NCBI RefSeq assembly: GCF_044647545.1
Contig: NZ_CP172818.1
Reading direction: 5' to 3' (one strand)
Length of the DNA: 64,000 nucleotides
Origin: Escherichia coli
GTDB lineage: Bacteria; Pseudomonadota; Gammaproteobacteria; Enterobacterales; Enterobacteriaceae
Shown: in pieces, positions 5,972 through 28,297 of the stretch
Position numbering within the stretch: the stretch's first letter is position 1
How the letters are laid out: each line of letters opens with the position of its first letter
Notes under the pieces: model-generated
What the model was told of the DNA's origin: nothing
Databases searched by the model: none
What the model saw: the letters and a program-made list of their open reading frames with translations, nothing else
Program-made: the position numbers and the translations under genes

Positions 5972-8611
5972 ATGCTGGGTAAATATAAAGCCGTTCTCGC
6001 GCTGTTATTACTGATTATTCTTGTGCCGTTGACGCTGCTGATGACGCTCGGGCTGTGGGTTCCTACGCTGGCGGGCATCTGGCTACCGCTCGGGACACGT
6101 ATTGCATTAGATGAAAGCCCACGCATTACGCGTAAAGGTTTAATCATTCCCGATCTCCGTTATCTGGTGGGAGATTGTCAGCTTGCGCATATCACCAACG
6201 CCAGCCTTTCACATCCCAGCCGCTGGTTATTGAACGTCGGCACGGTAGAACTTGATTCTGCTTGTCTGGCGAAATTGCCGCAGACGGAGCAATCGCCAGC
6301 CGCTCCAAAAACCCTCGCGCAGTGGCAGGCCATGTTGCCTAACACCTGGATCAATATCGATAAACTGATTTTTTCTCCCTGGCAGGAATGGCAGGGAAAA
6401 CTCTCTCTCGCATTAACCTCCGATATCCAGCAACTGCGTTATCAGGGCGAAAAAGTTAAATTTCAAGGCCAGCTGAAAGGGCAACAACTTACAGTCAGCG
6501 AACTGGATGTCGTCGCGTTTGAAAATCAGCCGCCGGTTAAACTGGTGGGGGAATTTACTATGCCGCTCGTGCCGGATGGACTTCCGGTAAGTGGGCATGC
6601 TACTGCGACGTTAAACTTGCCGCAGGAACCGTCACTGGTGGATGCAGAGCTGGACTGGCAGGAAAATAGCGGGCAATTGATCGTGCTGGCACGGGATAAC
6701 GGCGATCCGTTGCTCGATTTGCCGTGGCAAATTACTCGTCAACAATTGACCGTAAGCGATGGTCGCTGGAGCTGGCCGTATGCAGGTTTTCCTTTGAGTG
6801 GCCGACTGGGTGTCAAAGTCGACAACTGGCAGGCAGGGCTCGAGAACGCTCTGGTCAGCGGACGACTGAGTGTGCTGACCCAGGGGCAAGCGGGTAAGGG
6901 CAACGCGGTGCTTAATTTTGGCCCTGGAAAATTAAGCATGGATAACAGCCAGCTGCCTATGCAGCTGACCGGTGAAGCGAAACAGGCGGATCTCATTTTA
7001 TACGCCCGCTTACCTGCGCAGCTAAGCGGAAGTCTGACTGACCCAACGCTGGCCTTTGAGCCAGGCGCGTTATTACGTTCGAAGGGAAGAGTCATCGATT
7101 CGCTGGACATCGATGAAATCCGCTGGCCTTTAGCGGGTGTAAAAGTCACCCAACGTGGTGTTGACGGACGTTTGCAGGCCATTTTGCAGGCGCATGAAAA
7201 TGAACTGGGCGATTTCGTGCTGCATATGGATGGACTGGCGAATGATTTTCTCCCTGACGCTGGCCGCTGGCAGTGGCGCTACTGGGGAAAAGGCAGTTTT
7301 ACACCGATGAATGCCACCTGGGATGTCGCAGGAAAGGGTGAGTGGCATGACAGCACGATTACGCTGACCGATCTCTCCACCGGTTTCGACCAGTTACAAT
7401 ACGGTACGATGACGGTTGAAAAGCCGCGACTAATTCTCGACAAGCCCGTCGTCTGGGTACGTGACGCACAGCATCCCTCCTTTAGCGGCGCGCTGTCACT
7501 GGACGCCGGGCAAACGCTGTTCACTGGCGGCAGTGTGTTACCGCCATCAACCTTAAAATTTAGCGTCGATGGACGCGATCCGACGTATTTCCTCTTTAAA
7601 GGCGATTTACATGCTGGTGAGATTGGCCCGGTTCGGGTAAATGGTCGCTGGGACGGTATTCGTCTGCGCGGTAACGCCTGGTGGCCTAAACAATCACTGA
7701 CCGTATTCCAGCCGCTGGTGCCACCCGACTGGAAGATGAACTTACGCGATGGCGAACTATATGCCCAGGTCGCATTTTCTGCTGCGCCTGAACAAGGATT
7801 CCGCGCGGGAGGGCACGGTGTGTTGAAAGGCGGTAGTGCCTGGATGCCAGATAATCAGGTTAACGGTGTCGATTTTGTCCTGCCTTTCCGTTTTGCCGAT
7901 GGAGCCTGGCATCTGGGGACTCGCGGCCCCGTTACGTTGCGAATTGCCGAAGTGATTAATCTGGTGACAGCGAAAAATATTACGGCTGATTTGCAAGGTC
8001 GTTATCCGTGGACTGAAGAAGAACCATTGCTGTTGACTGATGTTAGCGTTGATGTGTTAGGCGGTAACGTACTGATGAAACAATTACGTATGCCGCAACA
8101 TGACCCGGCGCTGTTGCGGCTGAATAATCTTTCCTCCAGCGAACTGGTTAGCGCCGTCAATCCGAAACAATTCGCCATGTCCGGGGCATTTAGTGGTGCA
8201 TTGCCGTTATGGCTAAACAACGAAAAATGGATAGTGAAAGATGGTTGGCTGGCAAATAGCGGGCCAATGACCTTGCGGCTGGATAAAGACACCGCAGATG
8301 CGGTGGTGAAAGACAATATGACTGCGGGTTCAGCAATTAACTGGTTGCGCTATATGGAAATTAGCCGTTCATCGACAAAAATTAATTTAGATAATCTCGG
8401 TTTATTAACCATGCAGGCCAACATTACAGGTACCAGTCGCGTTGATGGTAAAAGCGGTACGGTAAATCTTAATTACCATCATGAAGAGAATATTTTTACG
8501 CTGTGGCGCAGTTTACGCTTTGGCGATAATCTCCAGGCATGGTTGGAGCAGAACGCACGTCTGCCGGGAAATGACTGTCCGCAAGGAAAAGAGTGTGAGG
8601 AAAAACAATGA
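5972..8611 (+). CDS. ydbH: AsmA-like large inner-membrane-anchored periplasmic protein, 879 aa
   Basis: 879-aa ORF with N-terminal transmembrane anchor; stop overlaps the ynbE start (ATGA), indicating translational coupling. Confidence 0.9.
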   Translation: MLGKYKAVLALLLLIILVPLTLLMTLGLWVPTLAGIWLPLGTRIALDESPRITRKGLIIPDLRYLVGDCQLAHITNASLSHPSRWLLNVGTVELDSACLAKLPQTEQSPAAPKTLAQWQAMLPNTWINIDKLIFSPWQEWQGKLSLALTSDIQQLRYQGEKVKFQGQLKGQQLTVSELDVVAFENQPPVKLVGEFTMPLVPDGLPVSGHATATLNLPQEPSLVDAELDWQENSGQLIVLARDNGDPLLDLPWQITRQQLTVSDGRWSWPYAGFPLSGRLGVKVDNWQAGLENALVSGRLSVLTQGQAGKGNAVLNFGPGKLSMDNSQLPMQLTGEAKQADLILYARLPAQLSGSLTDPTLAFEPGALLRSKGRVIDSLDIDEIRWPLAGVKVTQRGVDGRLQAILQAHENELGDFVLHMDGLANDFLPDAGRWQWRYWGKGSFTPMNATWDVAGKGEWHDSTITLTDLSTGFDQLQYGTMTVEKPRLILDKPVVWVRDAQHPSFSGALSLDAGQTLFTGGSVLPPSTLKFSVDGRDPTYFLFKGDLHAGEIGPVRVNGRWDGIRLRGNAWWPKQSLTVFQPLVPPDWKMNLRDGELYAQVAFSAAPEQGFRAGGHGVLKGGSAWMPDNQVNGVDFVLPFRFADGAWHLGTRGPVTLRIAEVINLVTAKNITADLQGRYPWTEEEPLLLTDVSVDVLGGNVLMKQLRMPQHDPALLRLNNLSSSELVSAVNPKQFAMSGAFSGALPLWLNNEKWIVKDGWLANSGPMTLRLDKDTADAVVKDNMTAGSAINWLRYMEISRSSTKINLDNLGLLTMQANITGTSRVDGKSGTVNLNYHHEENIFTLWRSLRFGDNLQAWLEQNARLPGNDCPQGKECEEKQ

Positions 8612-8793
8612 AAATTTTACTGGCTGCGTTGACGTCATCTTTTATGCTGGTTGGCTGTACGCCTCGCATTGAAGTCGCTGCCCCTAAGGAACCGATCACT
8701 ATCAATATGAACGTTAAAATTGAGCATGAGATCATCATCAAGGCAGACAAAGATGTCGAAGAGCTGCTTGAAACTCGTAGCGATCTTTTCTGA
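8608..8793 (+). CDS. ynbE: small lipoprotein YnbE, 61 aa
   Basis: 61-aa ORF MKILLAALTSSFMLVGC with lipobox; overlaps ydbH stop by 4 bp. Confidence 0.85.
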   Translation: MKILLAALTSSFMLVGCTPRIEVAAPKEPITINMNVKIEHEIIIKADKDVEELLETRSDLF

Positions 8794-8800
8794 GGCGATG

Positions 8801-9127
8801 ATGAAGAAAACATTACTTCTTTGTGCGTTTCTTGTTGGGCTGGTAAGCAGCAATGTAATGGCATTGACTCTGGATGAAGCCAGAACTCAGGGGCGGGTAG
8901 GTGAAACATTTTATGGTTATCTGGTTGCGCTGAAAACAGATGCTGAAACAGAGAAATTAGTAAACGACATTAATGCCGAACGTAAAGCGAGTTACCAACA
9001 ACTGGCAAAGCAAAATAATGTGTCGGTAGATGATATCGCGAAACTCGCCGGGCAAAAGCTCGTAGCTCGGGCCAAACCGGGGGAATATGTACAAGGGATA
9101 AACGGTAAATGGGTGCGAAAATTTTAA
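8801..9127 (+). CDS. ydbL: periplasmic protein YdbL (DUF1318), 108 aa
   Basis: ORF 8720-9127 trimmed to MKKTLLLCAFLVGLVSSNVMA signal peptide start, 8 bp after the ynbE stop; 108 aa. Confidence 0.8.
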   Translation: MKKTLLLCAFLVGLVSSNVMALTLDEARTQGRVGETFYGYLVALKTDAETEKLVNDINAERKASYQQLAKQNNVSVDDIAKLAGQKLVARAKPGEYVQGINGKWVRKF

Positions 9128-9260
9128 TAGCAAAACCGCACTATCGGGATAACGCTACAGGAGAAGGCGATTAATCTATTTTCCGGAAACAAGATGATTA
9201 TTCAAAAACTCCTGTCAAATTGCCTTTCGCCCTGAAAATGAATAGTCAAATATCTGTTTT

Positions 9261-9299
9261 AACTAATTAGCGTTGCTGTACATGCAACGCTAATTAGTT
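9261..9299. repeat. 39-bp hairpin-forming palindrome (16-bp perfect arms, 7-nt loop) at the 3' ends of ydbL and feaR
   Basis: AACTAATTAGCGTTGC-tgtacat-GCAACGCTAATTAGTT read directly; abuts the feaR stop codon (9298-9300); no flanking T-run. Confidence 0.8.
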
Positions 9300-10203
9300 A
9301 GCGGAATTTACGTCGATACTCGCCTGGCGTCATCCCAAAGCGTTGCTTAAATACCGTTGAAAAATGACTCTGGTCGGAAAATCCCCAATGAAAGCCAATG
9401 CCTGCCAGTTTTTCATCATCTGCGGCATGGCGAATCGCATCTGCACAAAAATCGAGACGACGGTTACGGATATATTGCGCGACTACCAAACCTTTATCGG
9501 CAAACATTCGGTACAAACTACGTACTGACATACCTGTCTCTCCGGCTATCCACTCCGGGCGTAATATCTCTTCGCGAATATTATCGTCTATCAACGTAAC
9601 CACTTTTTGAAACTGACGTTCACGACGAGGTTGAACAGATTCCCGCTGATGAAGTACCGGGCGCAGCAGACACACCATCGCCTGTAGCGCAGCTTCACTT
9701 TCTGTTTCAGAAAGTGCCGGATTATTCATGCTCTCCTGTAACAGGCGATGACTGAGTTGCACCATGGGTAAGTCAGCGTCCAGTCTTTCTGCGCAGATAG
9801 GTTTTTGATGGGGAAAATATTGTTCCAGCAGAGTGCGTGGCAAAAGTAATGAAATCTGTTTAGAAGACTCCTGCCAGTAAAGCGAACAGGGGCGTGAGGC
9901 ATCGAGTAACGTAATATCGCCAGCGCCAATCTGCACCTGACGCTCATCCTGCTCCATTATTGCCTGACCACTAAGCTGAAAAACGGTGTAAAACCAGGCA
10001 TCGTCGCTGCCTTTTACTTCCTGCCAGGTGCGGGATAAATTCACCCCGCTGGTTGTCACGGTACTCAGCTTTAGTCCTTTGGCAAAATGCGTGTCCAGTA
10101 CACCCGTGTAACGCTCAGTCAGCAGGCGTCCGGTAAAATTTCCGCATACCTGATTGATTTGGGAAAGCCATTGCTGAAACTCATTATCCACTGCGGGGTT
10201 CAT
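9298..10203 (-). CDS. feaR: AraC/XylS-family transcriptional activator of feaB/tynA, 301 aa
   Basis: 301-aa ORF with C-terminal AraC-type HTH; divergent from feaB. Confidence 0.9.
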   Translation of the reverse strand: MNPAVDNEFQQWLSQINQVCGNFTGRLLTERYTGVLDTHFAKGLKLSTVTTSGVNLSRTWQEVKGSDDAWFYTVFQLSGQAIMEQDERQVQIGAGDITLLDASRPCSLYWQESSKQISLLLPRTLLEQYFPHQKPICAERLDADLPMVQLSHRLLQESMNNPALSETESEAALQAMVCLLRPVLHQRESVQPRRERQFQKVVTLIDDNIREEILRPEWIAGETGMSVRSLYRMFADKGLVVAQYIRNRRLDFCADAIRHAADDEKLAGIGFHWGFSDQSHFSTVFKQRFGMTPGEYRRKFR

Positions 10204-10322
10204 GGCACGTTTTCGCTCTGTGAAATGTATTTTTATTGTTGCATTTGTGTTGCAATAAACGAAGCTAATGAGCCTGACTATAGGAAATAAGTCTTGTCAG
10301 GCATAGAGACATAAGCGGTTAT

Positions 10323-10368
10323 TGTCACGATTTGCGGAGCTTGTCACAGCTGACAAAGCGAATGTCAC
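10323..10368 (+). promoter_or_regulatory. three direct TGTCAC repeats in the feaR-feaB intergenic region (candidate FeaR operator / feaB promoter)
   Basis: TGTCAC at 10323, 10342 and 10363, spaced 19-21 bp, about 70-110 bp upstream of the feaB ATG. Confidence 0.45.
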
Positions 10369-10435
10369 AGCGAAAAAAGTGACTTTTCTTGTCGCTGCGT
10401 ACACTGAAATCACACTGGGTAAATAATAAGGAAAA

Positions 10436-11932
10436 GTGATGACAGAGCCGCATGTAGCAGTATTAAGCCAGGTCCAACAGTTTCTCGATCGTCAACACGG
10501 TCTTTATATTGATGGTCGTCCTGGCCCCGCACAAAGTGAAAAACGGTTGGCGATCTTTGATCCGGCCACCGGGCAAGAAATTGCGTCTACTGCTGATGCC
10601 AACGAAGCGGATGTAGATAACGCAGTCATGTCTGCCTGGCGGGCCTTTGTCTCGCGTCGCTGGGCCGGGCGATTACCCGCAGAGCGTGAACGTATTCTGC
10701 TACGTTTTGCTGATCTGGTGGAGCAGCACAGTGAGGAGCTGGCGCAACTGGAAACCCTGGAGCAAGGCAAGTCAATTGCCATTTCCCGTGCTTTTGAAGT
10801 GGGCTGTACGCTGAACTGGATGCGTTATACCGCCGGGTTAACGACCAAAATCGCGGGTAAAACGCTGGACTTGTCGATTCCCTTACCCCAGGGGGCGCGT
10901 TATCAGGCCTGGACGCGTAAAGAGCCGGTTGGCGTAGTGGCGGGAATTGTGCCATGGAACTTTCCGTTGATGATTGGTATGTGGAAGGTGATGCCAGCAC
11001 TGGCAGCAGGCTGTTCAATCGTGATTAAGCCTTCGGAAACCACGCCACTGACGATGTTGCGCGTGGCGGAACTGGCCAGCGAGGCTGGTATCCCTGATGG
11101 CGTTTTTAATGTCGTCACCGGGTCAGGTGCTGTATGCGGCGCGGCCCTGACGTCACATCCTCATGTTGCGAAAATCAGTTTTACCGGTTCAACCGCGACG
11201 GGAAAAGGTATTGCCAGAACTGCTGCTGATCACTTAACGCGTGTAACGCTGGAACTGGGCGGTAAAAACCCGGCAATTGTATTAAAAGATGCTGATCCGC
11301 AATGGGTTATTGAAGGCTTGATGACCGGAAGCTTCCTGAATCAAGGGCAAGTATGCGCCGCCAGTTCGCGAATTTATATTGAAGCGCCGTTGTTTGACAC
11401 GCTGGTTAGTGGATTTGAGCAGGCGGTAAAATCGTTGCAAGTGGGACCGGGGATGTCACCTGTTGCACAGATTAACCCTTTGGTTTCTCGTGCGCACTGC
11501 GACAAAGTGTGTTCATTCCTCGACGATGCGCAGGCACAGCAAGCAGAGCTGATTCGCGGGTCGAATGGACCACCAGAGGTATTATGTTGCGCCAACGCTA
11601 GTGCGGTAAAATCCCGATGCTAAATTGCGCTTAACTCGTGAAGAGGTGTTTGGTCCGGTGGTAAACCTGGTGCGAGTAAGCGGTGGAAGAGGCGTTACAA
11701 CTGGCAAACGACACGGAATATGGCTTAACTGCCAGTGTCTGGACGCAAAATCTCTCCAGGCTCTGGAATATAGCGATCGCTTACAGGCAGGGACGGTGTG
11801 GGTAAACAGCCATACCTTGATTGACGCTAACTACCGTTTGGTGGGATGAAGCAGTCAGGAACGGGCCGTGATTTTGGCCCCGACTGGCTGGACGGTTGGT
11901 GTGAAACTAAGTCGGTGTGTGTACGGTATTAA
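10436..11932 (+). pseudogene. feaB: phenylacetaldehyde dehydrogenase, frameshifted in its 3' third
   Basis: First ~385 codons intact (ORF 10436-11623, aldehyde dehydrogenase family); expected length 499 aa. Remainder recoverable only in shifted frames (ORF 11625-11849 [18 protein letters not shown]...); original stop context ...KSVCVRY* at 11930-11932. Confidence 0.8.
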
Positions 11933-11953
11933 TATTGGTTCGCTAATTAAGTA

Positions 11954-11979
11954 AAAAACGGCACCTGGTGCCGTTTTTT
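11954..11979. terminator. bidirectional intrinsic terminator between convergent feaB and tynA
   Basis: A6-CGGCACC..GGTGCCG-T6 hairpin flanked by A and T runs. Confidence 0.7.
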
Positions 11980-11991
11980 GTCTGAAAACAA

Positions 11992-14283
11992 TCACTTATC
12001 TTTCTTCAGCGCCCCTAGCGTTGGCGTTTCATAAAGAAGTTCCATGGTTTAAGCAGAGTATGTACCCATTCGGTCGGCATAATCGGCCACTCTTCAGCAC
12101 GGGCCACATGTGTGGTGCCGGTGGGTCATCCAGACAACGGCGTCGGTGTTGTCCAGCGACTCGTTATCTTTACTGTATTGTCCAAGACCGGTGTCATCAG
12201 TAGAACGGTTCAGGATATTTGCCTTCCGGGAAACGCTCGCCAGGATGATAACGCGTTACCCAGAAAGCTGCTTTGTCCATAAAGCTTAAACGATGATAGA
12301 TCCACTCATCCCAGGCGCCACTGGGCACCTTTTGCTACCGGGTGAGTACCGCCTGCATAAGGAATAATTTGATAGGAAACTGGATTGCCCATGCGGTTCT
12401 CTTTGTTGCGGGTTACTCAACAGACGAATCATGCCCCGGATCAAACTACGGCATCCTGTTCATTGCCGATGTTGTACTGATTAACTTGCATCAAGGTACT
12501 GGTGCGTCGGCCACCGGCAGTATTCGGTTTCCACTGGGTCCATCGCCACCAGGCTGTTATTCTCGCCATCTACATAAGGAATCGAGGCAGAAATTATCGA
12601 TCTGTTTGGTGTCAGTACCCACGATACTGTGATCGATAAGCGTGCCGTAGCGCGTGTCATCTTTCGCCGTCTCATCGTGCATGGTTTTCGCTTTAACACC
12701 TTTCACCGCTTCGATGCCCGTAGCACCGGCATCAATGCCAATAGTGCCGTTTTCATGGAAGATCCAGTCAAAATGTAGTCATAGTTACCCACTGTACTGA
12801 TCCAGCGCACCACTGACTCCCAGCATTCAGGTACTGACGTTGGGCTGGCCCATTTCCTGATGCTTATACTCCGGCCCGGCATAACGTTTCAAATACCGCG
12901 ATAGCGCGAGGATCTCCATCGGCACGCCAGTGTAGTCGGCGATGGTTTCATTAAGGAGCACTGCGTTAGACGGGGCATCTTTACCACGGCGAAATTGGTG
13001 AGGTTAGCGTGCCCATACCGTAGTCACCAGAGTCCAGATACGCTTTAAAGTACCAGCCAATATCCAGGATCACCGTAAGGCACAATAATGTCGCCGAGGA
13101 GAACCTTCGTGCATGACTTTGCGTTTGGTGCCGATATTGGTATATAGTCACGGTGGAGATCATAGGCCCGACGCGAGAGTTCATGCTGAGGTGAAAATCC
13201 CAGTTCCGCCAGTGAATAGTATCTCGCCAGTAATGGTGTAATTTTTACCTTCAGGCTCAATGATTTGCATAGGCTTGACTGCCGGAGCAACGCGGTCACG
13301 GCTATCAAATGGGCGTGCGGTCATTCACACGGAACTCCGGACCTTCTTCAATCTTAACGATTTTTTTCTGTTTCTGATCAACGACCGCCACCAGGTTTTC
13401 GATGGGATGTGCCCAGTAGTTCCATCGCCGACAGTCAAGATAGCTGATGACTTTGAGCAACCGGGCATCTTGTTTCAGGCCATCTTTACCATCGAAATAA
13501 CCTACGGTCAGCGGCGTGGTAATCACTTTTTTCGCATCAGTAATACCGCGTTTCTTCACGGCAGCGGCAAATTCTTCACTGTTGTTAATAATGTTCTGCA
13601 CACTGGCGAAATCATCCAGCAACACCATACCCGTGGCGTGTTTAATGGGTTCCAGGAGAGCAGTTTGTTGTTTTGCAGATCCACCACCGCTTCGATGATA
13701 TGTTTGCCGTCGAGCATAATGACGTCGGCTTTGCGCGGCTGGTCAACCGGTTTGTTTTCCAGCGCAAACGCCCAGACAGCTTCTTTATCTGGCGGTAGCA
13801 GGAGATCTCAGTAAAACAGGGTATTGGGTTTGAAGTCCCGCGGAAGCTTTAACAATTTCAACGGCCTGTTTAATTTCGTACCACAGTTCACGCATTAAGT
13901 GGGTGAGGGCGCTTTTATTACCTGAAAGGTTTGATCCAGACCGGACTGGAAAACATCGTTAATAAAGGTGTCGCAAAACCCAGGCCTTATTGTCTTTCAT
14001 ACGCTCCCGGCACTTGCAGTGCCAAGGTAGCCATTAACAATTGCTGTTTTGCGCACCAGGCTTCACTTTCACGTACGCGCCATCTTTAATCAGGGTAAAG
14101 ATCTGGGCGTAGTCGTCCCACTGCACATCGGCACCAAATTCTTTAAGCGTTTCATCCATTGGCACCATATGCGCTTCACCACCGTGGGCAAATACCGGCG
14201 CTTGCCAGGCGAAACTTAAGGCGACTGCCAACGCCAGGGTTGTTTTACGGGCAGAATCCGGAGAAAGAGGGCTTCCAGTTATT
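11992..14283 (-). pseudogene. tynA: copper/topaquinone amine oxidase (tyramine oxidase), heavily frameshifted
   Basis: Minus-strand fragments 14034-14315, 13305-13628, 13045-13308, 12981-13184 and 12481-12699 translate to successive pieces of TynA (e.g. ARKTTLALAVALSFAWQAPVFAHGGEAHMVPMD; MVLLDDFASVQNIINNSEEFAAAVKKRGITDAKK) separated by frame changes; stop ...LKKDK* at 11992-11994; start codon region also altered. Expected 757 aa. Confidence 0.75.
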
Positions 14284-14485
14284 AACCTCGTCAGATGTTG
14301 TGTTCTTGTTAGCAACCGCGCTCTGTGGGCGGTTTAGTCAGGTTCACATTATGAGTACTGATGCAAAGAAATCCTGCACCTCAGAGTTATTTGGCAGGTG
14401 TGCCCACTTTTTCATACAGTGGGTGCCCTGAAAATCAATGTACACATCATGCATAATGTGACAACGTCACAAAAGTTAGTGAAAT

Positions 14486-14516
14486 GAAAAAGGGCAACTG
14501 TTCGGGCCGTTGCCCT
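14486..14516 (-). terminator. intrinsic terminator downstream of paaZ
   Basis: GGGCAAC..GTTGCCC hairpin followed on the minus strand by a T5 run. Confidence 0.6.
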
Positions 14517-14527
14517 TCATTCACCGA

Positions 14528-16563
14528 TTAATCGACAAAATCACCATATCCTGGCCACCAGCGTCAGAATTGAATACAGCGCCACCGGGGTTTGATGCTG
14601 ATTGAATACCTCTACCGCCCATTCCACCACCTGTTGGTTTTTCTTCTGCGCTACGCTGTTTTTTCAGCGTCTTGCGCTTACAGGTGAGACGCACCTGGAT
14701 GGTATCGCCTGGCTTTACGGGTTCGATAAGCGCAAGTTTTCCAGCCCATAATTAGCAATGACCGGACCGACACCGGCATCGACAAACAGACCCGCAGAGC
14801 CGCAGAAAAAGCACAAAATACCCATGCACCACACGCTCACCGAAAATAGATTCGGCAGCAGCAGAATATTATCCATATGCGCATAGAAATAATCGCCGCT
14901 GAGGCAAGCAAAGTTAACAATATCGGCCTCTGTCATTGTGCGGCGGGAGTGGCAGGTATCCGCCTGGTTGTAGCTCCTCAAAATATTTGCGGAACGGATG
15001 AATACGATCTTCTTCGACTTTCGCACCACGCACCCACTGTTTACTGATAGCTGCAAGCATCGTCGGACTACCCTGAACAGCGGTTCGCTGCGTGTGATCC
15101 TTCACCCGCTCGTAAACCACCTAATTCTTCACCGCCTCCTGCGCGACCAGGCCCACCATGTAACAGTTGTGGCAGTCGGAGAGCCATGCCGGTGGATTCT
15201 TTTGCCGATTCCTCATTGAGGATCTGAATTCGCCCATGCGTACGTGCCGCGTCGGTAATAAACTGACGCGCAATTTGCGGATCAGCCGTCACCAGCGTTC
15301 CGCAAGGCTACCGCCGCCTGCACAAGCCAGTTGCAGAGCATGTCGCTGGTTTTGTGCTGGCATCAGCGTTGCGACAGGGCCAAAGGCTTCTGTTGCATGT
15401 ACCGCCGGTGTTTCATCCGGCTGCGGACAGTACAATAAGGTTGGCGGGAAAGAGCACCCGCAGCAGATAAATCCGCCTGACCACCGAGGCGAATCTCGCA
15501 TCCTGCAGCCAGCAATATGTTCACTTTTTCCTGCACATCGGCACGCTGCTCAGCATTTACCAGTGCGCCCATATTCACGCCTTCCTGAGCAGGATCACCG
15601 ACCACGACTTTCTGTAATCGCGCAACCAGGACGATTCACTGACAGCATTAACCAATGCCTGCGGCGCGATAATCCGCCGGATTGCCGTACATTTTTGCCC
15701 GGCTTTTGTGGTCATCTCACGCACAACTTCACGAATAAACAGCGCAAACTCCGAGTTAAATGCGGGTAACATCTTCGCCCAGTACGCAGCAGTTCAGGGA
15801 ATCAGCTTCCATAGTGAAGGGGATAGATTTGGCGACGATATTTGGCTGAACTCGCGGCGTCTCTGCAGGTCGCCGCTGACCCGTGAAAGTCACCACATCC
15901 TGGCTGTCCAGATAATCCAAAAGGTCGCCCGCACTACCGCAGATCAGACTAATTGCGCCTTCGGGAACAAGACCACTATCGACAATTGATTTCACCATCG
16001 CCTGAGTACGTTGGGCCGTCGCGGTAGCTGGTTTGATGATGGCTGGCATTCCGCCCAGCCACGTTGGTGCCAGCTTCCGGCGTTTTGCCACAGGGGAAGT
16101 TAAAGGCGTTAATATGCACTGCCACGCCTGAGCTTTGAGGTCAGTACATGGCGCGCGGCAAATCCACCTTCTTTCGATAAGGGGATCAATTCATCTTCCG
16201 GCCACAGCGTATCGTCGGCGGCTGCCCGGCTACCGAGGCTGGCGTAAGTAAATAACGTCCCAATGCCACCTTCAAATCAACCGAACTGTTGCCGCGTTGC
16301 GCCTGTTTGCGCAGAAAGACATAGAAGCGCTCTTTTTTCACTCAGCAGATGTTTAGCGACCGCTTTAAGCATCGCCGCACGTTCGATAAAGGTCATCACG
16401 CAGAAGCAGCCTTTTCAATGGCAAACTGCAACGGGCCACCGCCATATAGACCTTTCACTGGTCACTTCCCATAACGCCTCGCCGCTGATAGCGTGGTGAA
16501 TCAAACGGCTACCACCCCGCCAGACTGCCAGGTACCGGATAAGAAACTGGCTAACTGCTGCAT
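14528..16563 (-). pseudogene. paaZ: bifunctional oxepin-CoA hydrolase / aldehyde dehydrogenase, multiply frameshifted
   Basis: ATG intact at 16561-16563 and stop ...GDFVD* at 14528-14530, but interior split into fragments (15756-16091, 15575-15772, 15363-15605, 15068-15292, 14715-15056) that each match PaaZ segments; span 2036 nt versus 2046 expected (681 aa). Confidence 0.75.
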
Positions 16564-16792
16564 CGCTACTCTCCAGATGTTTCACATTTATGTTGCTAAT
16601 AGTTAAATTGCGAATCATAAAAAGCAAGGGTTCTTTTAACGAAATGTTAACTATGCAAATATGTATCACAACTGCGGAAAACATTAATGCACTGATAAAT
16701 AATGATTTATAAAAAATCGGGTGCGAAATCCGTCACAGTTCAAGCATACAAAATTTGTGATTTTAGTTAACCATTGTGTAACTTTCATAAAC

Positions 16793-16834
16793 AATGTGAT
16801 TCGTGTTTTTAATTAATTCGCGAACTTGGAATCG
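16793..16834. promoter_or_regulatory. PaaX-type operator half-site in the paaZ-paaA divergent promoter region
   Basis: AATGTGATTCGTGTT at 16793-16807 fits the PaaX box consensus WWTRTGATTCGYGWT as I remember it; an imperfect inverted partner GAATCG lies 26 nt downstream. Confidence 0.45.
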
Positions 16835-16847
16835 TAAAGGTAATAAC

Positions 16848-17773
16848 ATAACCCAAGAAGAACGCTTTGAGCAACGGATAGCCCAGGAAACGGCTATCGA
16901 GCCGCAGGACTGGATGCCAATAAGAAAGCACTGATCCGCCAGATTGGGCAGCATGCACACTGCAAATTGTGGTATGTTCCTGAAGGTAACTGGATCACTG
17001 GCGCACGACCTTTTGCAGCATAAAGCCATTCTGTTCGCCAAAGTCCAGGATGAAGCCGGTCATCGTCTGTATCTCTATAGCGCCGCCGAAACACTGGGCT
17101 GCACAGAGAAGACATCTACCAAAAAATGCTCAAACAACGATAAATATTCCTCCATCTTTAATTATCCGACATTGGTCTCCAGGGGCTGATATCGGCGTTA
17201 TCGGCTGGCTGGTGGAGTAGCAGCGATCGTCAATCAGGTGGCGTTATGTCGCACTTCTTATGGCCCGTATGCCAGAGCAATGGTGAAGATCTGCAAAGAA
17301 GAGAGTTTTTCACCAGCGTCAGGGGTTTGAAGCCTGCATGGCACTGGCGCAGGCGGCGAAGGACGCTCAAAAGCAGATGTTGCAAGACGCCATTAACCGT
17401 TTCTGGTGGCCAGCCTTAATGATGTTCGGGCCAAACGATGATAACTCGCCAAACAGCGCCAGAAGTACCGCCTGGAAAATCAAACGTTTCACCAACGACG
17501 AACTCGCCAGCGTTTCGTGGATAACACCATTCCACAGGTTGAAATGCTCGGTATGACCGTTCCTGACCCGGATCTGCATTTTGACACTGAAAGCGGTCAC
17601 TACCGCTTTGGTGGAAATCAACTGGCAGGAGTTTAACGAAGTAATTAACGGTCGCCGGAATTTGTAATCAGGAGAGGCTCGACGCCAAACGTAAAGCCTG
17701 GGAAGAAGGTACCTGGGTACGGGAAGCAGCGCTGGCCCATGCACAAAAACAACTTGCCCGTAAGGTCGCATAA
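16848..17773 (+). pseudogene. paaA: ring 1,2-phenylacetyl-CoA epoxidase subunit A, start codon lost and frameshifted
   Basis: Conserved N-terminus reads I-TQEERFEQRIAQETAIEPQDW with ATA in place of ATG at 16848-16850; later pieces (e.g. 17338-17556 MALAQAAKDAQKQMLQDAINRFWWPALMMFGPNDDNSPNSARS) in other frames; stop at 17771-17773. Expected 309 aa. Confidence 0.75.
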
Positions 17774-17784
17774 GGAGATTCAAA

Positions 17785-18069
17785 ATGAGTAATGTTTATT
17801 GGCCGTTATACGAAGTTTACCCGTTCGTGGCAAACAGGGCTTATCACACCGCCATGTTGGCAGTTTTTACATGCTGCCGATGAGCGGATGGCACTGAAAA
17901 TGCCGGTGATTGTTACACCGTCGTAGCGAAGGATGTTCAATTTGGGTGGTGAAGGCGAGTGAAATTGTTGCCTCGCAACCGGAAGAACGCGGTGAATTTT
18001 TTGATCCGGCTGAAGCAAGGTCTATCGCCATCCAACGTTTTACACCATCCCTGATGGCATTCAACATGA
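17785..18069 (+). pseudogene. paaB: epoxidase subunit B, frameshifted
   Basis: ATG at 17785 with MSNVYWPLYEV N-terminus; body recovered in a shifted frame (17910-18149 ...SEGCSIWVVKASEIVASQPEERGEFFDPAE...). Expected 95 aa; 3' end approximate. Confidence 0.65.
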
Positions 18070-18077
18070 GGTCGGAA

Positions 18078-18820
18078 ATGAATCAGTTAACGGCTTACAC
18101 CTTCGCCTGGGCGATAACTGCCTGGTGCTTCCAGCGGTTGGGTGAATAGTGCGGTCATGCACCGGAACTGGAAATCGATCTCGCACTGGCAAATATTGGA
18201 CTCGATTTATTAGGCCAGGCACGCAACTTCTTATCGTATGCCGCTGAATTAGCGGGAGAAGGCGATGAAGATACCCTGGCCTTCACCCCAACAAGCACCA
18301 GTTCAGCAACTTATTGTTGGTTGAACAGCCAAACGGCAATTTTGCCGACAACCGTCGCCAGTATTTCATCGATGCATGGCATGTGGCGCTCTTTACCATT
18401 CTGATGGAGAGCCGTGATCCGCGACTGGCGGCGATTTCTGCAAAGCGATTAAAGAAGCGCGTTATAGCCTGCGTTTTATTCGTGGCTGGCTGGAGCAACT
18501 GGGCAATGGTACTGACGTATACGGGCGAAAGAATGCCAGCAGGCCATCAACAAGTTGTGGCGTTTTACCGCCGAACTGTAGATGCCGACGAGATTGATAT
18601 TGCACTGAGTGAAGAGGGTATTGCGGTTGATCCACGCGCTTTTACGCGCAGCGTGGGAAGCCGAAGTTTTTGCCGGGATCAACGAAGCCACATTCAACGT
18701 ACCGCAGAGCAGGCGTATCGCACTGGCGGTAAAAAAGGACTGCATACCGAACACCTTGGACCCATGCTGGCAGAAATGCAGTTATTGTTTGAGCGTGTCT
18801 TGCCCGGTCAGCAATGGTAA
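18078..18820 (+). pseudogene. paaC: epoxidase subunit C, frameshifted
   Basis: Start MNQLTAYT at 18078; C-terminal portion in ORF 18314-18820 ends ...LPGQQW*; span 743 nt, not a multiple of 3, versus 747 expected (248 aa). Confidence 0.7.
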
Positions 18821-18834
18821 CAGAGGAGGTGGGT

Positions 18835-19325
18835 ATGCAACGTATCAGCCACCATTCCGCCGCCACAGGTTCATCCAGATATGGGCGCTACTGGGCGCGA
18901 TCCCGGACCGGAGATCCCGGTGCTGACCATTACCGATTTAGGCATGGTGCGTAATGTGACACAGATGGAAAGAATGGGTGATCGGCTTTACGCCGACTTA
19001 TTCCGGTTGTCCGGCAACGGAACGTTGATTGGCGCGATACGTGAGGCAATGACAACCCACGGGTTTACCCGTACGGTTGTGCTGCAACTCGACCCGGCAT
19101 GGACCACCGACTGGATGACCCCCGATGCCCGTGAGCGTCTGCGACGGTATGGCATTAGCCCGCCCGGCCGGAACAGTTGCCGGCCCATTTGCCGCCAGAA
19201 GTACGTTGCCCGCGCTGCGCCAGCGTCCATCCACACTTATCAGTGAATTTGGTTCCACGGCCTGCAAAGCATTGTACCGCTGCGATAGTTGCCACAAACC
19301 TTTCGATTATTTCAAATGTATTTGA
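18835..19325 (+). pseudogene. paaD: epoxidase subunit D, frameshifted
   Basis: ATG at 18835; fragments 18881-19246 (IPVLTITDLGMVRNVTQM...) and 19125-19325 (...CDSCHKPFDYFKCI*) in different frames. Confidence 0.7.
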
Positions 19326-19332
19326 GGATGCC

Positions 19333-20397
19333 ATGACAACGTTTCATTCCTTAACAGTGGCAAAAGTGGGCCCGGAAACCCGTGATGCGGTGACCATTAC
19401 CTTTGCATGCAGCCTTTGCAGGAGGCGTATCACTTTCGCCCCGGTCAACATTTGACCTTAAAAGCCAGTCTTGATGGTGAAGAATTAGCCATTGTTCTCC
19501 ATTTGCCGCAGCTACCTGCCTGGCGAAATTAGTGTGGCGGTGAAAGCCATTGAAGGCGGACGTTTCTCCCGCTATGCCCGCGAACACATCCGCCAGGGTA
19601 TGACGCTGGAGGTCATGGTGCCGCAGGGGCATTTCGGCTATCAGCCACAGGCCGAACACCAGGGCCGCTATCTGGCTATTGCAGCAGGATCAGGTATTAC
19701 GCCAATGCTGGCGATTATCGCCACCACTTTCAAACCGAGCCTGAAAGTCAGTTCACCCTGATCTACGGTAACCGTACCAGCCAGAGCATGATGTTTCGCC
19801 AGGCACTGGCAGACCTGAAAGACAAATATCCTCAGCGTTTACAGTTGTTGTGCATTTTCAGTCAGGAAACCCTCGACAGCGATCTGCTTCACGGGCGTAT
19901 TGACGGTGAAAAATTACGTGGCTTGGGGCCTCGCTCATTGATTTTTCGTCTTTATGATGAGGCGTTTGCTTTGTGGTCCGGCGGCGATGATGGATGAGAC
20001 GGAAGCCGCCTTAAAAGCACTGGGAATGCCAGATAAAACCATTCATCTGGAGCGGTTTAATACGCCTGGCACGCGCGTCAAAGCGTCGCGTTAACGTGCA
20101 AAGTGACGGACAAAAGTGACTGTACGTCAGGATCGGCGGGATCGGGAAATCGTGCTTAATGCCGACGATGAAAGCATTCTCGATGCGGCATTGCGCCAGG
20201 GGGCTGATCTGCCCTATGCCTGCAAAGGCGGCGTCTGTGCGACCTGCAAATGCAAAGTGCTGCGTGGCGAAGTGGCGATGGAAACCAATTACAGTCTGGA
20301 ACCGGATGAACTGGCCGCAGGTTATGTGTTGAGTTGCCAGGCACTGCCGCTGACCAGCGATGTGGTGGTTGACTTTGACGCGAAGGGGATGGCATCA
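19333..20397 (+). pseudogene. paaE: epoxidase reductase subunit E (ferredoxin-NADPH reductase), frameshifted and stop codon lost
   Basis: Start MTTFHSLTVAK at 19333; fragments 19492-19761 and 20116-20406 (2Fe-2S motif CKGGVCATCKCK) in different frames; the expected overlapping TGA stop reads TCA at 20395-20397. Confidence 0.7.
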
Positions 20398-21172
20398 GCG
20401 AACTGATCGTCAGCCGTCAGCAACAGGTGCTTGCTGCTGACCCTTAACCGTCCCGCCGCACGTAATGCGCTGAGAATAATGCCCTTCTGACGCAACTGGT
20501 AAATGAACTGGAAGCTGCGGCTACCGATAGCAGCATTTCGGTCTGTGTGATTACCGGTAATGCACGCTTTTTTGCCGCTGGGGCCGATCTCAACGAAATG
20601 GCAGAAAAAGATCTCGCGGCCACCTTAAACGATACACGTCCGCAGCTATGGGCGCGATTGCAGGCCTTTAATAAACCACTTATCGCAGCCGTCAATGGTT
20701 ACGCGCTTGGGGCGGGTTGCGAACTGGCATTGTTGTGCGATGTGGTGGTTGCCGGAGAGAACGCGCGTTTTGCGTTGCTTTTTACAGGAAATCACTCTCG
20801 GCATCATGCCAGGCGCAGGAGGAACGCAACGTTTAATCCGTAGTGTCGGTAAATCGTTAGCCAGCAAAAATGGTGCTGAGCGGAGAAAGTATCACCGCTC
20901 AGCAAGCACAGCAGGCCGGGCTGGTTAGCAACATCTTCCCCAGCGATTTAACCCTCGAATACGCCTTACAGCTGGCATCGAAAATGGCACGTCACTCGCC
21001 GCTGGCCTTACAAGCGGCAAAGCAAGCGCTGCGCCAGTCGCAGGAAGTGGCTTTGCAAGCCGGACTTGCCCAGGAGCGACAGTTATTCACCTTGCTGGCG
21101 GCAACAGAAGATCGTCATGAAGGCATCTCCGCTTTCTTACAAAAACGCACGCCCGACTTTAAAGGACGCTAA
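20394..21172 (+). pseudogene. paaF: 2,3-dehydroadipyl-CoA hydratase (enoyl-CoA hydratase), start codon lost and frameshifted in the 5' two-thirds
   Basis: N-terminus reads I-SELIVSRQQ with ATC in place of ATG at 20394-20396; frame breaks near 20775 and 20850; last 100 codons (20870-21172) intact, ending ...RTPDFKGR*. Expected 255 aa. Confidence 0.75.
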
Positions 21173-21960
21173 TGATGGAATTCATCCTCAGTCATGTAGA
21201 AAAGGGCGTGATGACACTAACGCTCAACCGCCCGGAACGCCTGAACAGTTTTAATGATGAGATGCACGCACAACTGGCAGAGTGCCTGAAACAGGTCGAG
21301 CGCGACGACACTATCCGTTGCCTGTTACTTACAGGTGCCGGGCGCGGATTTTGTGCTGGTCAGGATCTTAACGATCGTAACGTTGATCCCACAGGCCCCG
21401 CACCGGATTTAGGGATGTCAGTTGAACGTTTCTATAACCCACTGGTACGTCGCCTGGCAAAACTGCCAAAACCGGTGATCTGTGCAGTCAATGGCGTGGC
21501 GGCAGGGGCAGGCGCAACACTGGCACTGGGGGGCGACATCGTTATTGCTGCCCGTTCAGCAAAATTCGTCATGGCGTTTAGTAAGTTAGGCTTAATACCC
21601 GATTGCGGTGGAACCTGGTTACTGCCACGCGTTGCCGGACGAGCGCGCGCCATGGGGCTGGCACTGCTGGGGAATCAACTGAGTGCTGAACAGGCGCACG
21701 AATGGGGGATGATCTGGCAGGTTGTTGATGATGAAACGCTGGCAGATACCGCGCAACAGCTGGCACGGCATCTGGCGACACAACCGACATTTGGTCTTGG
21801 ACTTATCAAGCAAGCGATAAATAGCGCTGAAACCAATACGCTCGATACGCAACTGGATCTGGAACGTGACTATCAGCGACTTGCCGGACGGAGCGCAGAT
21901 TATCGTGAAGGTGTCAGTGCGTTCCTGGCTAAACGCTCACCGCAGTTCACGGGGAAATAG
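21172..21960 (+). CDS. paaG: 1,2-epoxyphenylacetyl-CoA isomerase (crotonase fold), 262 aa
   Basis: Intact 262-aa ORF MMEFILSHVEKGVMTLTLNRP...; start overlaps paaF stop by 1 bp. Confidence 0.9.
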   Translation: MMEFILSHVEKGVMTLTLNRPERLNSFNDEMHAQLAECLKQVERDDTIRCLLLTGAGRGFCAGQDLNDRNVDPTGPAPDLGMSVERFYNPLVRRLAKLPKPVICAVNGVAAGAGATLALGGDIVIAARSAKFVMAFSKLGLIPDCGGTWLLPRVAGRARAMGLALLGNQLSAEQAHEWGMIWQVVDDETLADTAQQLARHLATQPTFGLGLIKQAINSAETNTLDTQLDLERDYQRLAGRSADYREGVSAFLAKRSPQFTGK

Positions 21961-21961
21961 C

Positions 21962-23389: not shown

Positions 23390-23801
23390 GGCCTGGCAAA
23401 ATGCCCATGCAATGTATGAGAACGATGCCTGCGCCAAAGCGCTTGGCATCGACATTATCTCAATGGATGAAGGCTTTGCTGTAGTGACCATGACCGTCAC
23501 TGCACAAATGCTTAACGGTCATCAAAGTTGCCACGGCGGGCAGCTATTTTCACTGGCTGATACTGCCTTTGCCTACGCCTGCAATAGCCAGGGGCTGGCA
23601 GCCGTCGCTTCTGCCTGCACGATTGATTTTTTGCGTCCAGGCTTTGCCGGAGACACCTTAACTGCTACTGCGCAGGTACGTCATCAGGGCAAGCAAACCG
23701 GTGTTTACGACATCGAAATTGTTAACCAACAACAAAAAACGGTTGCGCTGTTTCGCGGTAAATCTCACCGCATCGGCGGCACCATTACAGGAGAAGCCTG
23801 A
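23379..23801 (+). CDS. paaI: hotdog-fold acyl-CoA thioesterase, 140 aa
   Basis: ORF 23295-23801 trimmed to MSHKAWQNAHAMYEND; 140 aa. Confidence 0.85.
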   Translation: MSHKAWQNAHAMYENDACAKALGIDIISMDEGFAVVTMTVTAQMLNGHQSCHGGQLFSLADTAFAYACNSQGLAAVASACTIDFLRPGFAGDTLTATAQVRHQGKQTGVYDIEIVNQQQKTVALFRGKSHRIGGTITGEA

Positions 23802-25006: not shown

Positions 25007-25032
25007 GCATATCAACCTGCGAGTACCCTACA

Positions 25033-26346: not shown

Positions 26347-26446
26347 CGTATCGTCTGGCCCTGGTGGGGTAAAGCGCCAGGGCCAGAAGTCGATACGACC
26401 TGTGCTATGATTCATAAATCACAACAATAACAACAGACTGAAGCGA

Positions 26447-28038: not shown

Positions 28039-28297
28039 GTATTAATTCATACCGTTTTTTCATCATATAATTATTTATAATGAGAATGTGGTTTTAATTT
28101 GTAATTTATATTATATACACAATTTATATATTTCATGGTCTTTTTTTATTCACCTGAATTATAATTGTGAATTATAGGAAAGTATGTTTGATTAGATAAT
28201 AATCTACTGGCAATATTGGATGTCTTCTATGTTTTAAATAACTAATTGGTCGGGTTAGTGCATCCGGCTTTCTTTATATTCGCCAGAAGGATTTATT

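What the first reader, a model, noticed from the sequence alone, without database searches (positions are those of the whole stretch)
9261..9299. Perfect 16-bp-arm palindrome abutting the feaR stop codon
AACTAATTAGCGTTGC-tgtacat-GCAACGCTAATTAGTT forms a strong hairpin in either transcript orientation but lacks a T-run. It could be a Rho-independent-like pause or stability element, or a protein-binding palindrome between convergent ydbL and feaR.
Basis: seen in the sequence. Interest (0 to 1): 0.3.

Follow-up and report, generated by a model that had tools for sequence, protein, structure and literature searches.

The report
Self-correcting palindrome between ydbL and feaR
A real, single-copy, perfectly symmetrical 41-base hairpin sequence sits where two E. 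coli genes meet tail to tail; it is not a transcription stop signal, and its symmetry seems to be kept by the DNA copying itself arm to arm, so it is a neat but fairly ordinary feature.

Summary
The palindrome is real. Its arms are 17 nt (9260-9276 / 9284-9300) around a 7-nt loop, and the right arm contains the feaR stop codon. It is the longest perfect inverted repeat in the window, well beyond chance.

- **Distribution:** it is single-copy and confined to E. coli proper. In relatives the ydbL and feaR stop codons abut or are separated by unrelated DNA.
- **Alleles:** about 4,192 of 5,426 complete E. coli genomes carry it, as five main alleles without indels. One mirrored pair (9269:9291) occurs as G-C, C-G, A-T and a G·G mismatch (409 genomes). 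All changes there are transversions.
- **Timing:** the A-T allele (this window) most likely arose after feaR had been cut to a promoterless stub.
- **Not a terminator:** there is no U-tract on either strand. Published K-12 data show + strand transcripts passing it and stopping Rho-dependently about 120 nt further on, and no 3' end was called at the site.

Best reading (about 0.45): a DNA palindrome kept symmetrical by replication template switching. It folds into a -24 kcal/mol hairpin in both convergent transcripts, acting at most as an exonuclease barrier or pause site.

The window looks like a mosaic. Beyond 9505, "feaR" is K-12-identical sequence that natural genomes with this allele lack.

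The parts
9260..9276 (.). Left arm of the perfect palindrome (TAACTAATTAGCGTTGC)
9277..9283 (.). Loop TGTACAT. The first base is T or A among E. coli; A (the K-12 allele) pairs with 9283 to give an 18-bp stem and a 5-nt loop.
9284..9300 (.). Right arm (GCAACGCTAATTAGTTA)
9298..9300 (-). feaR stop codon (TAA), lying inside the base of the stem
9269..9269 (.). Variable arm position 10 (A here; G or C in other alleles). It mirrors 9291.
9291..9291 (.). Variable arm position 32 (T here; C or G in other alleles). It is the pairing partner of 9269. Observed states: G-C, C-G, A-T and G·G.
9283..9284 (.). Site of the common TG to CA dinucleotide polymorphism (allele V2, 1,327 genomes). It opens the two innermost pairs on the + strand RNA but leaves a G·U pair in feaR-sense RNA.
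9257..9260 (+). Short T-run that lies upstream of the stem on the + strand (an A-run after the stem on the - strand). This is the wrong side for an intrinsic terminator in either direction.
9128..9259 (.). Rest of the ydbL-feaR spacer. It is specific to E. coli, highly polymorphic, and contains a second, imperfect inverted repeat (9157-9176 / 9196-9215).
8801..9127 (+). ydbL, last gene of ydbH-ynbE-ydbL. Its read-through transcript contains the hairpin.
9298..10203 (-). feaR reading frame (301 aa) as it stands in the window. Only 9298-9505 matches the natural genomes that carry this allele; the remainder is K-12-identical.

Best explanation
This is a single-copy DNA palindrome that arose in the E. 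coli lineage, in a spacer inserted between the formerly abutting stop codons of ydbL and feaR.

Its perfect symmetry is kept at the DNA level. When one arm mutates, intramolecular template switching during replication (quasipalindrome correction) either reverts the change or copies it onto the other arm. The element therefore drifts from one perfect palindrome to another (G-C to G·G to C-G to A-T at pair 9269:9291).

Both convergent transcription units run through it, so it is transcribed into a hairpin of about -24 kcal/mol in either RNA. That hairpin is not an intrinsic terminator, and on the + strand Rho ends transcription about 120 nt further on. Its most likely physical effects are passive: a block to 3'-to-5' exonucleases that sets a protected 3' end, and an RNA polymerase pause at the gene boundary.

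What is shown: the anatomy, population pattern, lineage restriction, lack of a U-tract, and read-through in K-12. What is inferred: the template-switch mechanism and the exonuclease-barrier or pause role.
For: - **Not chance:** perfect 17-nt arms, far beyond the chance expectation.
- **Not a repeat family:** single copy per genome. No true mobile copy was found in plasmid or phage records, and no exact core match in viral contigs.
- **Lineage-specific:** the spacer and palindrome are absent from a divergent Escherichia lineage (73-nt unrelated spacer). They are also absent from Pseudocitrobacter and Pluralibacter, where the two stop codons abut.
- **Alleles:** five alleles account for about 4,147 of 4,195 genomes that hold the spacer. 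All have stems of at least 16 bp, and the 125 sampled loci show no indels.
- **Covariation:** pair 10:32 shows three Watson-Crick states plus a G·G state in 409 genomes.
- **Route of change:** every change at that pair is a transversion, so no G·U route exists. A single mismatch still leaves -20 to -24 kcal/mol, so selection for exact repair should be weak.
- **Timing:** all inspected A-T genomes have feaR reduced to a 207-bp stub. A C-G genome shares that junction and an identical right flank. The C-G to A-T switch therefore most likely happened without a functional feaR.
- **Intermediates:** no A·G or C·T intermediate was found in 5,426 genomes.
- **Rate:** the palindrome carries about as many mutational events per base as the neutral-looking spacer.
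- **Literature:** perfect inverted repeats with arms of 13 bp or more are about 150-fold enriched in MG1655 non-coding DNA, and their conservation was attributed to template switching (PMC5941160). Template switching can create stems and make compensatory changes (PMC8794818).
- **Not a terminator:**
Against: - No experiment at this locus shows templated mutation.
- The covariation rests on one pair and a few events (38 of 500 shuffles reach the score), and recombination has scrambled the flanks. The order of events is therefore parsimony, not proof.
- Common polymorphism is somewhat lower in the stem (3 of 34 sites) than in the spacer (20 of about 119) or the loop (2 of 7). The V2 change keeps a G·U pair in feaR-sense RNA. 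Both leave room for selection on RNA.
- No 3' end at the hairpin was reported by Term-seq in three conditions, so the exonuclease-barrier role has no direct support. Expression there is low (54 reads per 800 nt).
Confidence: 0.45

Rival explanations
1. A selected RNA element shared by the two convergent units. The hairpin traps or pauses RNA polymerase from either side and programmes head-on collisions, and/or stabilises both mRNAs. This would be a collision-type bidirectional terminator. The compensatory changes would then reflect selection on RNA pairing.
For: - The site lies between convergent genes and gives the same hairpin in both RNAs.
- It is conserved in about 4,192 of 4,195 genomes that hold the spacer, and the 125 sampled loci show no indels.
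- The stem is about half as polymorphic as the spacer.
- V2 keeps a G·U pair in feaR-sense RNA.
- Wang et al. describe hairpin elements between convergent genes that do not terminate by themselves but are needed for positioned collisions (bioRxiv 10.1101/2022.10.23.513370).
- REPs between convergent genes behave as terminators and degradation blocks (bioRxiv 10.64898/2026.03.23.713779).
Against: - The class described by Ju and Wang is reported as Rho-independent. Here + strand termination is Rho-dependent and lies downstream of the hairpin.
- No 3' ends were called at the site.
- Both genes are weakly expressed, and collision termination scales with expression.
- Perfection is retained, and a double change arose, in lineages where feaR is a promoterless stub.
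- The changes are transversions with a G·G intermediate at 10% frequency, not the G·U route expected for RNA selection.
Confidence: 0.25
2. A stop-codon-proximal hairpin that throttles FeaR synthesis. Because the stem starts at the stop codon, the terminating ribosome must unwind it. This could stall translation and trigger mRNA cleavage or tmRNA action, as reported for REPs less than 16 nt from a stop codon.
For: - The stop codon lies inside the stem base.
- The REP precedent (Liang, Rudd and Deutscher 2015) is known here only as summarised in PMC12306157.
- FeaR is a regulator, for which low expression is plausible (own knowledge).
Against: - The effect is untested here, and the original paper could not be read.
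- The palindrome is equally well kept in about 1,000 genomes where feaR is often a truncated, untranslatable stub.
- Relatives manage without any hairpin.
Confidence: 0.1
3. A palindromic operator or cruciform recognised by a dimeric DNA-binding protein.
For: The element has perfect dyad symmetry. The outer arms are AT-rich and the core is GC-rich. The variable base sits at the junction of the two parts, as a non-contacted spacer position might.
Against: - It lies between two 3' ends, far from any promoter, and no promoter-like site was found in the spacer.
- The 17-18 bp perfect arms are much longer and more perfect than typical operators.
- The half-site is not repeated elsewhere in the window beyond chance, and there is one copy per genome.
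- It is absent from close relatives that have the same genes.
Confidence: 0.07
4. A canonical Rho-independent (intrinsic) terminator for feaR and/or ydbL.
For: There is a stable stem with a GC-rich inner part. The outer arm is moderately U-rich (UAAUUAGUUA) and could weakly mimic a U-tract.
Against: - There is no U-run after the stem on either strand, and the scan does not call the site.
- With bicyclomycin, coverage downstream equals upstream (91 versus 87 reads) across the palindrome in K-12.
- No Term-seq 3' end was called.
Confidence: 0.03
5. A scar or remnant of a small mobile element (MITE, REP or IS end) that inserted between the two stop codons.
For: - The spacer is a lineage-specific insertion that brought new stop codons for both genes.
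- It contains two inverted repeats.
- The junction is insertion-prone, with IS1 there in strain DP051.
Against: - There is one copy per genome at blastn sensitivity.
- No true extrachromosomal or phage copy was found. The full-length hits in those collections are chromosome-like or unannotated E. coli sequence; the core pattern is absent from viral contigs.
- There is no REP consensus and no Rfam match.
Confidence: 0.05

Closest known systems
Quasipalindromes and perfect short inverted repeats maintained by replication template switching (Lovett-type quasipalindrome mutagenesis in E. coli; Lavi et al. 2018, PMC5941160; Monttinen and Loytynoja 2022, PMC8794818)
   Same: An inverted repeat with a short spacer in non-coding DNA, with arms well above the 13 bp that are about 150-fold enriched in MG1655. 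Variation is seen as symmetrical two-arm changes, with a mismatch allele as a transitional state.
   Different: No experimental demonstration exists at this locus. Here the process is seen as standing polymorphism within one species: five alleles across 5,426 genomes, and three Watson-Crick states at one pair.
Bidirectional terminators between convergent genes that rely on RNA polymerase collisions (Ju et al. 2019; Wang et al., bioRxiv 10.1101/2022.10.23.513370)
   Same: It lies between convergent genes, encodes a hairpin in both directions, has weak or no U-tracts, and does not terminate unidirectional transcription by itself.
   Different: That class is described as Rho-independent with overlapping mapped 3' ends. 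Here the only in vivo datum is Rho-dependent termination 121 nt beyond the hairpin, with no 3' end called at it. Both genes are lowly expressed.
Intrinsic (Rho-independent) terminator
   Same: A stable stem-loop with a GC-rich core at the end of a gene.
   Different: There is no U-tract on either strand, and the T-run is on the wrong side. Published data show full read-through when Rho is inhibited.
REP/BIME elements in 3' UTRs (exonuclease barriers; translation down-regulators when less than 16 nt from a stop codon)
   Same: An extragenic palindrome in a shared 3' region, a stable hairpin, and immediate proximity to a stop codon.
   Different: It is single-copy and has no REP consensus. Its stem is perfect rather than mismatched, and it does not belong to a repeat family.

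Membership tests
Intrinsic terminator | GC-rich stem-loop | tested here: met
   A 17-bp stem with a 7-bp GC-rich core; -24 kcal/mol.
Intrinsic terminator | U-tract (about 5 or more U in 8 nt) immediately 3' of the stem | tested here: not met
   + strand tail is GCGGAAUUUACG; - strand tail is AAACAGAUAUUU. The site is not called by the scan.
Intrinsic terminator | Rho-independent RNA 3' ends at the site in vivo | tested here: not met
   Literature data for K-12 (PMC7815308): no Term-seq 3' end in 1446000-1446599. The + strand stop is bicyclomycin-sensitive, peaking at 1446501, and read counts are 87 upstream versus 91 downstream with bicyclomycin. The - strand was not assessable because feaR was not expressed.
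Collision-type bidirectional terminator of convergent genes | Located between convergent genes, with a hairpin encoded in both directions | tested here: met
Collision-type bidirectional terminator of convergent genes | Overlapping 3' ends of both transcripts at the element, independent of Rho | tested here: inconclusive
   The SEnd-seq tables (Ju et al. 2019) are not held. The available data show Rho dependence downstream of the element on the + strand, and there are no data for the - strand.
REP/BIME | Member of a multi-copy family with a shared consensus | tested here: not met
   One place per genome at blastn sensitivity. The arm motif is not repeated in the window beyond chance.
MITE or IS remnant | Related copies elsewhere (chromosome, plasmids, phages) | tested here: not met
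   Plasmid and phage hits are the same chromosomal-type E. coli locus (chromosome-sized records, plus a 253-kb 'plasmid' and an unannotated 23-kb 'phage' record) or chance 22-nt matches, not a distinct mobile copy. The core pattern has none in viral contigs.
Template-switch-maintained quasipalindrome | Inverted repeat with a short spacer, able to fold on a single DNA strand | tested here: met
   DNA hairpin of -17 to -20 kcal/mol for all perfect alleles.
Template-switch-maintained quasipalindrome | Substitutions appear as mirrored changes in both arms, including ones with no wobble intermediate | tested here: met
   Pair 9269:9291 occurs as G-C, C-G and A-T plus G·G. All steps are transversions. 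There are 0 genomes with A·G or C·T.
Template-switch-maintained quasipalindrome | Elevated, templated mutation rate at an arm mismatch, dependent on replication and exonucleases | not testable with these tools
   This needs a genetic reversion or deep-sequencing assay.
Operator palindrome of a transcription factor | Position at a promoter, or similar sites elsewhere in a regulon | tested here: not met
   It lies between two 3' ends, with no promoter-like site in the spacer, and the half-site is unique in the window.
Any Rfam RNA family | Covariance-model match at the gathering score | tested here: not met
   Only sub-threshold microRNA-precursor hits (23 bits against gathering scores of 95-110), as expected for any perfect hairpin.

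The most novel reading that the evidence does not exclude
This locus is a natural, population-scale record of template-switch 'compensatory evolution' in progress. It is a non-essential palindrome in which one base pair has moved through G-C, G·G, C-G and A-T within E. coli. The mismatch intermediate is still present in about 10% of genomes, and one switch occurred after the adjacent gene was dead. If so, covariation in a hairpin can arise with no selection on RNA, and the site would be a ready-made in vivo system to measure arm-to-arm correction rates.
Probability: 0.45. Interest if true: 0.45.

Novelty: new member of a known kind. Interest (0 to 1): 0.28.

Why it matters
Covarying base pairs are usually read as proof that an RNA structure is functional. 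Here mirrored changes occur in a hairpin that does not terminate transcription. They are all transversions, and one arose beside a dead gene.

That pattern fits DNA-level self-templating. It is a caution for covariation-based RNA discovery in bacteria, especially for perfect palindromes.

For annotation, the practical point is that this hairpin should not be labelled a terminator. In K-12, ydbH-ynbE-ydbL transcripts are ended by Rho inside antisense feaR.

Tried and rejected
- **Rfam search of 8500-10500:** only sub-threshold microRNA-precursor matches, which any perfect hairpin produces.
- **Copies elsewhere:** none found in the window, in E. coli genomes at blastn sensitivity, or in viral contigs. 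Plasmid and phage records gave only the same E. coli locus (chromosome-sized or unannotated records) and chance 22-nt Leuconostoc matches. Mobile-element and repeat-family readings were therefore dropped.
- **Cross-genus covariation test downstream of feaR:** only four relatives were recovered and none has a homologous spacer, so the test was impossible. It did show that the element is lineage-specific.
- **Published 3'-end tables:**
  - Adams et al. 2021 was usable.
  - The SMRT-Cappable-seq supplements have no ydbL, feaR or ynbE entry.
  - Dar and Sorek 2018 has no supplement held.
  - Ju et al. 2019 and Liang et al. 2015 are not held.
  - The RepRanger supplements have no entry.
- **Literature searches:** feaR plus ydbL, and feaR plus bicyclomycin, returned nothing relevant; the hits were the name 'Fearnhead' or the ordinary word 'fear'.
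- **Six-frame stop block:** the arm TAACTAATTAG has stop codons in all three frames on both strands, but only in this allele. K-12 (TTGG) and the C-G allele lose the third stop, so it is a coincidence.
- **Known operator motifs:** LexA, TyrR, CRP-like and other operators were considered from memory. None matches, and this was not tested with a motif database.
- **A templating source for the V2 TG to CA change:** considered by eye in the flanks, without a dedicated search; none was evident.

Full report
**1. The observation**

The window reads TAACTAATTAGCGTTGC-TGTACAT-GCAACGCTAATTAGTTA at 9260-9300. The arms are 17 nt and perfect, one base longer on each side than reported.

The feaR reading frame (9298-10203, - strand) ends with TAA at 9298-9300. 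The stop codon is therefore part of the stem, not merely next to it. ydbL ends at 9127, 132 nt upstream.

The 41-mer is unique in the window. It is the longest perfect inverted repeat in 64 kb, whereas 40 Markov-chain simulations gave longest arms of 8-13 nt.

Folded as RNA, the hairpin dominates both strands. The 41-mer gives -24.1 and -23.5 kcal/mol. In 101-nt contexts z is about -5, and 0 of 200 shuffles fold as well.

No T-run follows the stem on either strand. The only T-run (9257-9260) precedes it on the + strand, and the terminator scan does not call the site.

**2. Context and distribution**

The neighbourhood is ydbH-ynbE-ydbL (+), then feaR (-), then feaB (+), as in K-12.

The spacer with the palindrome is present once per genome in 4,195 of 5,426 complete E. 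coli genomes. Where it is missing, the region has been replaced or deleted.

Plasmid and phage records hold no distinct mobile copy. Their full-length hits are the same E. coli locus, and the core pattern is absent from viral contigs. Rfam gives only sub-threshold microRNA-precursor noise.

A scan of one genome per species with FeaR found only four relatives.
- In Pseudocitrobacter and Pluralibacter, the feaR and ydbL stop codons abut with no spacer.
- In a divergent Escherichia lineage (record labelled E. coli SCPM-O-B-8794; 87-93% nucleotide identity), an unrelated 73-nt spacer without this palindrome separates them, and feaR ends in TGA.

The 170-nt spacer, the palindrome and the present stop codons of both genes are therefore an innovation of E. 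coli proper. The sampling of relatives is thin.

**3. Population variation**

I collected 120 metagenome loci, anchored on the flanks so that the palindrome itself was unconstrained. With the complete-genome loci already fetched and the window, this made 125 sequences. They contain six alleles and no indels.

Counts in complete genomes, from exact 41-mer queries:

| Allele | Pair 10:32 | Loop base 1 | Other change | Genomes |
|---|---|---|---|---|
| V1 (K-12) | G-C | A (18-bp stem) | none | 1,403 |
| V2 | G-C | A | TG to CA at positions 24-25 | 1,327 |
| V3 | C-G | T | none | 880 |
| V4 | G·G mismatch | A | none | 409 |
| V5 (this window) | A-T | T | none | 128 |

These alleles, plus about 45 single-difference neighbours, account for about 4,192 of the 4,195 genomes.

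One mirrored pair (9269:9291) therefore exists in three Watson-Crick states and one mismatch state. Fourteen of the 18 pairs never vary. With only six distinct rows the formal covariation statistic is weak: 38 of 500 shuffles reach the observed score.

All alleles keep a stem of at least 16 bp and -19 to -28 kcal/mol.

Common polymorphisms:
- 20 per roughly 119 nt in the rest of the spacer;
- 3 per 34 stem positions, two of which are the mirrored pair;
- 2 per 7 loop positions.

The stem is thus somewhat, but not significantly, less variable. The number of mutational events per base is similar to that of the spacer.

**4. What the pattern says about mechanism**

Four features argue that the symmetry is kept at the DNA level rather than by selection on RNA pairing.

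(a) Every step at pair 10:32 is a transversion (G to C, C to G, C to A, G to T). The usual RNA route through G·U is not available, and the observed intermediate is G·G.

(b) A single mismatch costs only 4-7 kcal/mol out of about 27. Selection to restore exactly that pair should therefore be very weak.

(c) The A-T allele is always found with feaR cut down to a 207-bp promoterless stub fused to the 3' remnant of paaX.
- This holds in three complete genomes that were inspected, in four metagenome contigs, and in 30 of 30 sampled annotation rows.
- A C-G genome (FDAARGOS_1287) has the same junction and an identical 200-nt right flank.
- C-G also occurs with intact feaR.
- By parsimony, the C-G to A-T double change happened after feaR was dead. 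Recombination on the left flank makes this an inference rather than a proof.

(d) No A·G or C·T intermediate exists among 5,426 genomes. This fits fast conversion once one arm has mutated.

Published work supports this process.
- Perfect inverted repeats with arms of 13 bp or more are about 150-fold enriched in MG1655 non-coding DNA. Their conservation was attributed to template switching (PMC5941160).
- Template switching can create stems and produce compensatory changes (PMC8794818).
- Quasipalindrome-associated template-switch mutagenesis is an established E. coli mechanism (for example PMC7202029).

**5. What it does as RNA**

It is not an intrinsic terminator. In K-12 coordinates the palindrome is 1446340-1446380.

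Adams et al. 2021 (PMC7815308) report a Rho termination region on the + strand that peaks at 1446501, 121 nt beyond the palindrome. Reads upstream and downstream were 54 and 14 without bicyclomycin, and 87 and 91 with it. They call no Term-seq 3' end in 1446000-1446599 in three growth conditions.

So ydbH-ynbE-ydbL transcripts pass the most stable allele (V1) and are stopped by Rho inside antisense feaR. Expression is low, so a minor trimmed 3' end could have been missed. The - strand could not be judged.

Any transcript that crosses the site must contain a hairpin of about -24 kcal/mol. The remaining plausible RNA effects are therefore passive:
- a barrier to 3'-to-5' exonucleases (general knowledge of PNPase and RNase II behaviour);
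- an RNA polymerase pause at the gene boundary, as in the hairpin elements that position head-on collisions between convergent genes (bioRxiv 10.1101/2022.10.23.513370);
- for feaR, interference with the terminating ribosome, by analogy with REPs less than 16 nt from a stop codon (summarised in PMC12306157).

None of these is shown here.

**6. Comparison with known kinds**

It works most like a template-switch-maintained quasipalindrome. Anatomically it resembles the U-tract-poor hairpins between convergent genes.
- It fails the defining tests for an intrinsic terminator: U-tract, and Rho-independent 3' ends.
- It fails the tests for REP/BIME or MITE: it belongs to no multi-copy family.
- It matches no Rfam family.
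- Protein binding is unlikely, given its position between two 3' ends and its symmetrical drift.

**7. Verdict**

This is a new, well-documented member of a known kind: a perfect inverted repeat in a convergent 3' region.

Its main interest is as a clean natural example of mirrored 'compensatory' change that probably needs no RNA function. Interest is about 0.28.

**8. Caveat on the window**

The window is 100% identical to FDAARGOS_497 and WB61 over 6760-9505 and 36916-38472, and 99.6% identical over 27242-27968. These are exactly the parts those genomes possess.

The parts those genomes lack (9506-27241 and 27969-36915) are different.
- Most of this sequence is identical to K-12, including K-12's IS2 and IS30 insertions in ydbA.
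- Between about 11.57 and 20.x kb, it is riddled with single-base indels.

This looks like reference-guided fill-in or a hybrid. The 'intact' feaR and the frameshifted feaB of the window should not be taken at face value.

Noticed in passing
window 9506-27241 and 27969-36915: The window is a mosaic. Segments shared with FDAARGOS_497/WB61-type genomes are 99.6-100% identical to them. The segments those genomes lack are K-12-identical over 9506-11571, 21-27 kb and 31-36 kb, including K-12's IS2 and IS30 in ydbA. This suggests reference-guided fill-in or a K-12 hybrid.
   Followed up: partly
window about 11572-20900: Compared with K-12, this stretch has a dense mix of single-base indels (12-41 per kb) and substitutions, covering the feaB 3' end, tynA and paaZ to paaE. 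As a result feaB is split: an ORF ends at 11623 after 395 aa, against 499 aa in K-12. It looks like sequence error rather than natural decay.
   Followed up: partly
window 11953-11979: AAAAAACGGCACC-G-GGTGCCGTTTTTT is a textbook A-tract/U-tract bidirectional terminator between convergent feaB and tynA. It is a useful contrast to the U-tract-less palindrome.
   Followed up: no
L002/L132/L133 about 1905/2745; L134 about 2790; L005 2643-2660: There are recurrent rearrangements next to the palindrome. Two different deletions end inside the feaR 3' part: a 207-bp stub fused to the paaX 3' remnant, and a stub of about 250 bp fused to a paaY fragment. Strain DP051 has an IS1 insertion in the spacer, and MS20657 has the region replaced from about 9192.
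   Followed up: partly
window 9157-9176 / 9196-9215: A second, imperfect inverted repeat lies in the spacer (20-nt arms, 70% complementary). The window's haplotype has A at 9173 and T at 9198, which turn a G·T and an A·A of K-12 into two A-T pairs. This may be another arm-homogenising change.
   Followed up: no
L128 3904-3909; L129; L130 3907-3912: In Pseudocitrobacter and Pluralibacter, the feaR and ydbL stop codons are directly adjacent (TGA followed by TTA or TCA), with no spacer. This is probably the ancestral arrangement.
   Followed up: yes
window 9260-9270 and 9290-9300: In this allele only, the arm TAACTAATTAG carries stop codons in all three frames, and so on both strands. The K-12 and C-G alleles lose the third stop, so this is a coincidence.
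   Followed up: yes
window 37990-38039; 45118-45157; 28564-28587; 28952-29925: Other inverted repeats are present: a terminator-like CAAAAGGGAAA/TTTCCCTTTTG, a 16-nt pair, and a coding-type GATGATGATCATCATC palindrome. There are also internal direct repeats of about 294 nt in the ydbA region.
   Followed up: no
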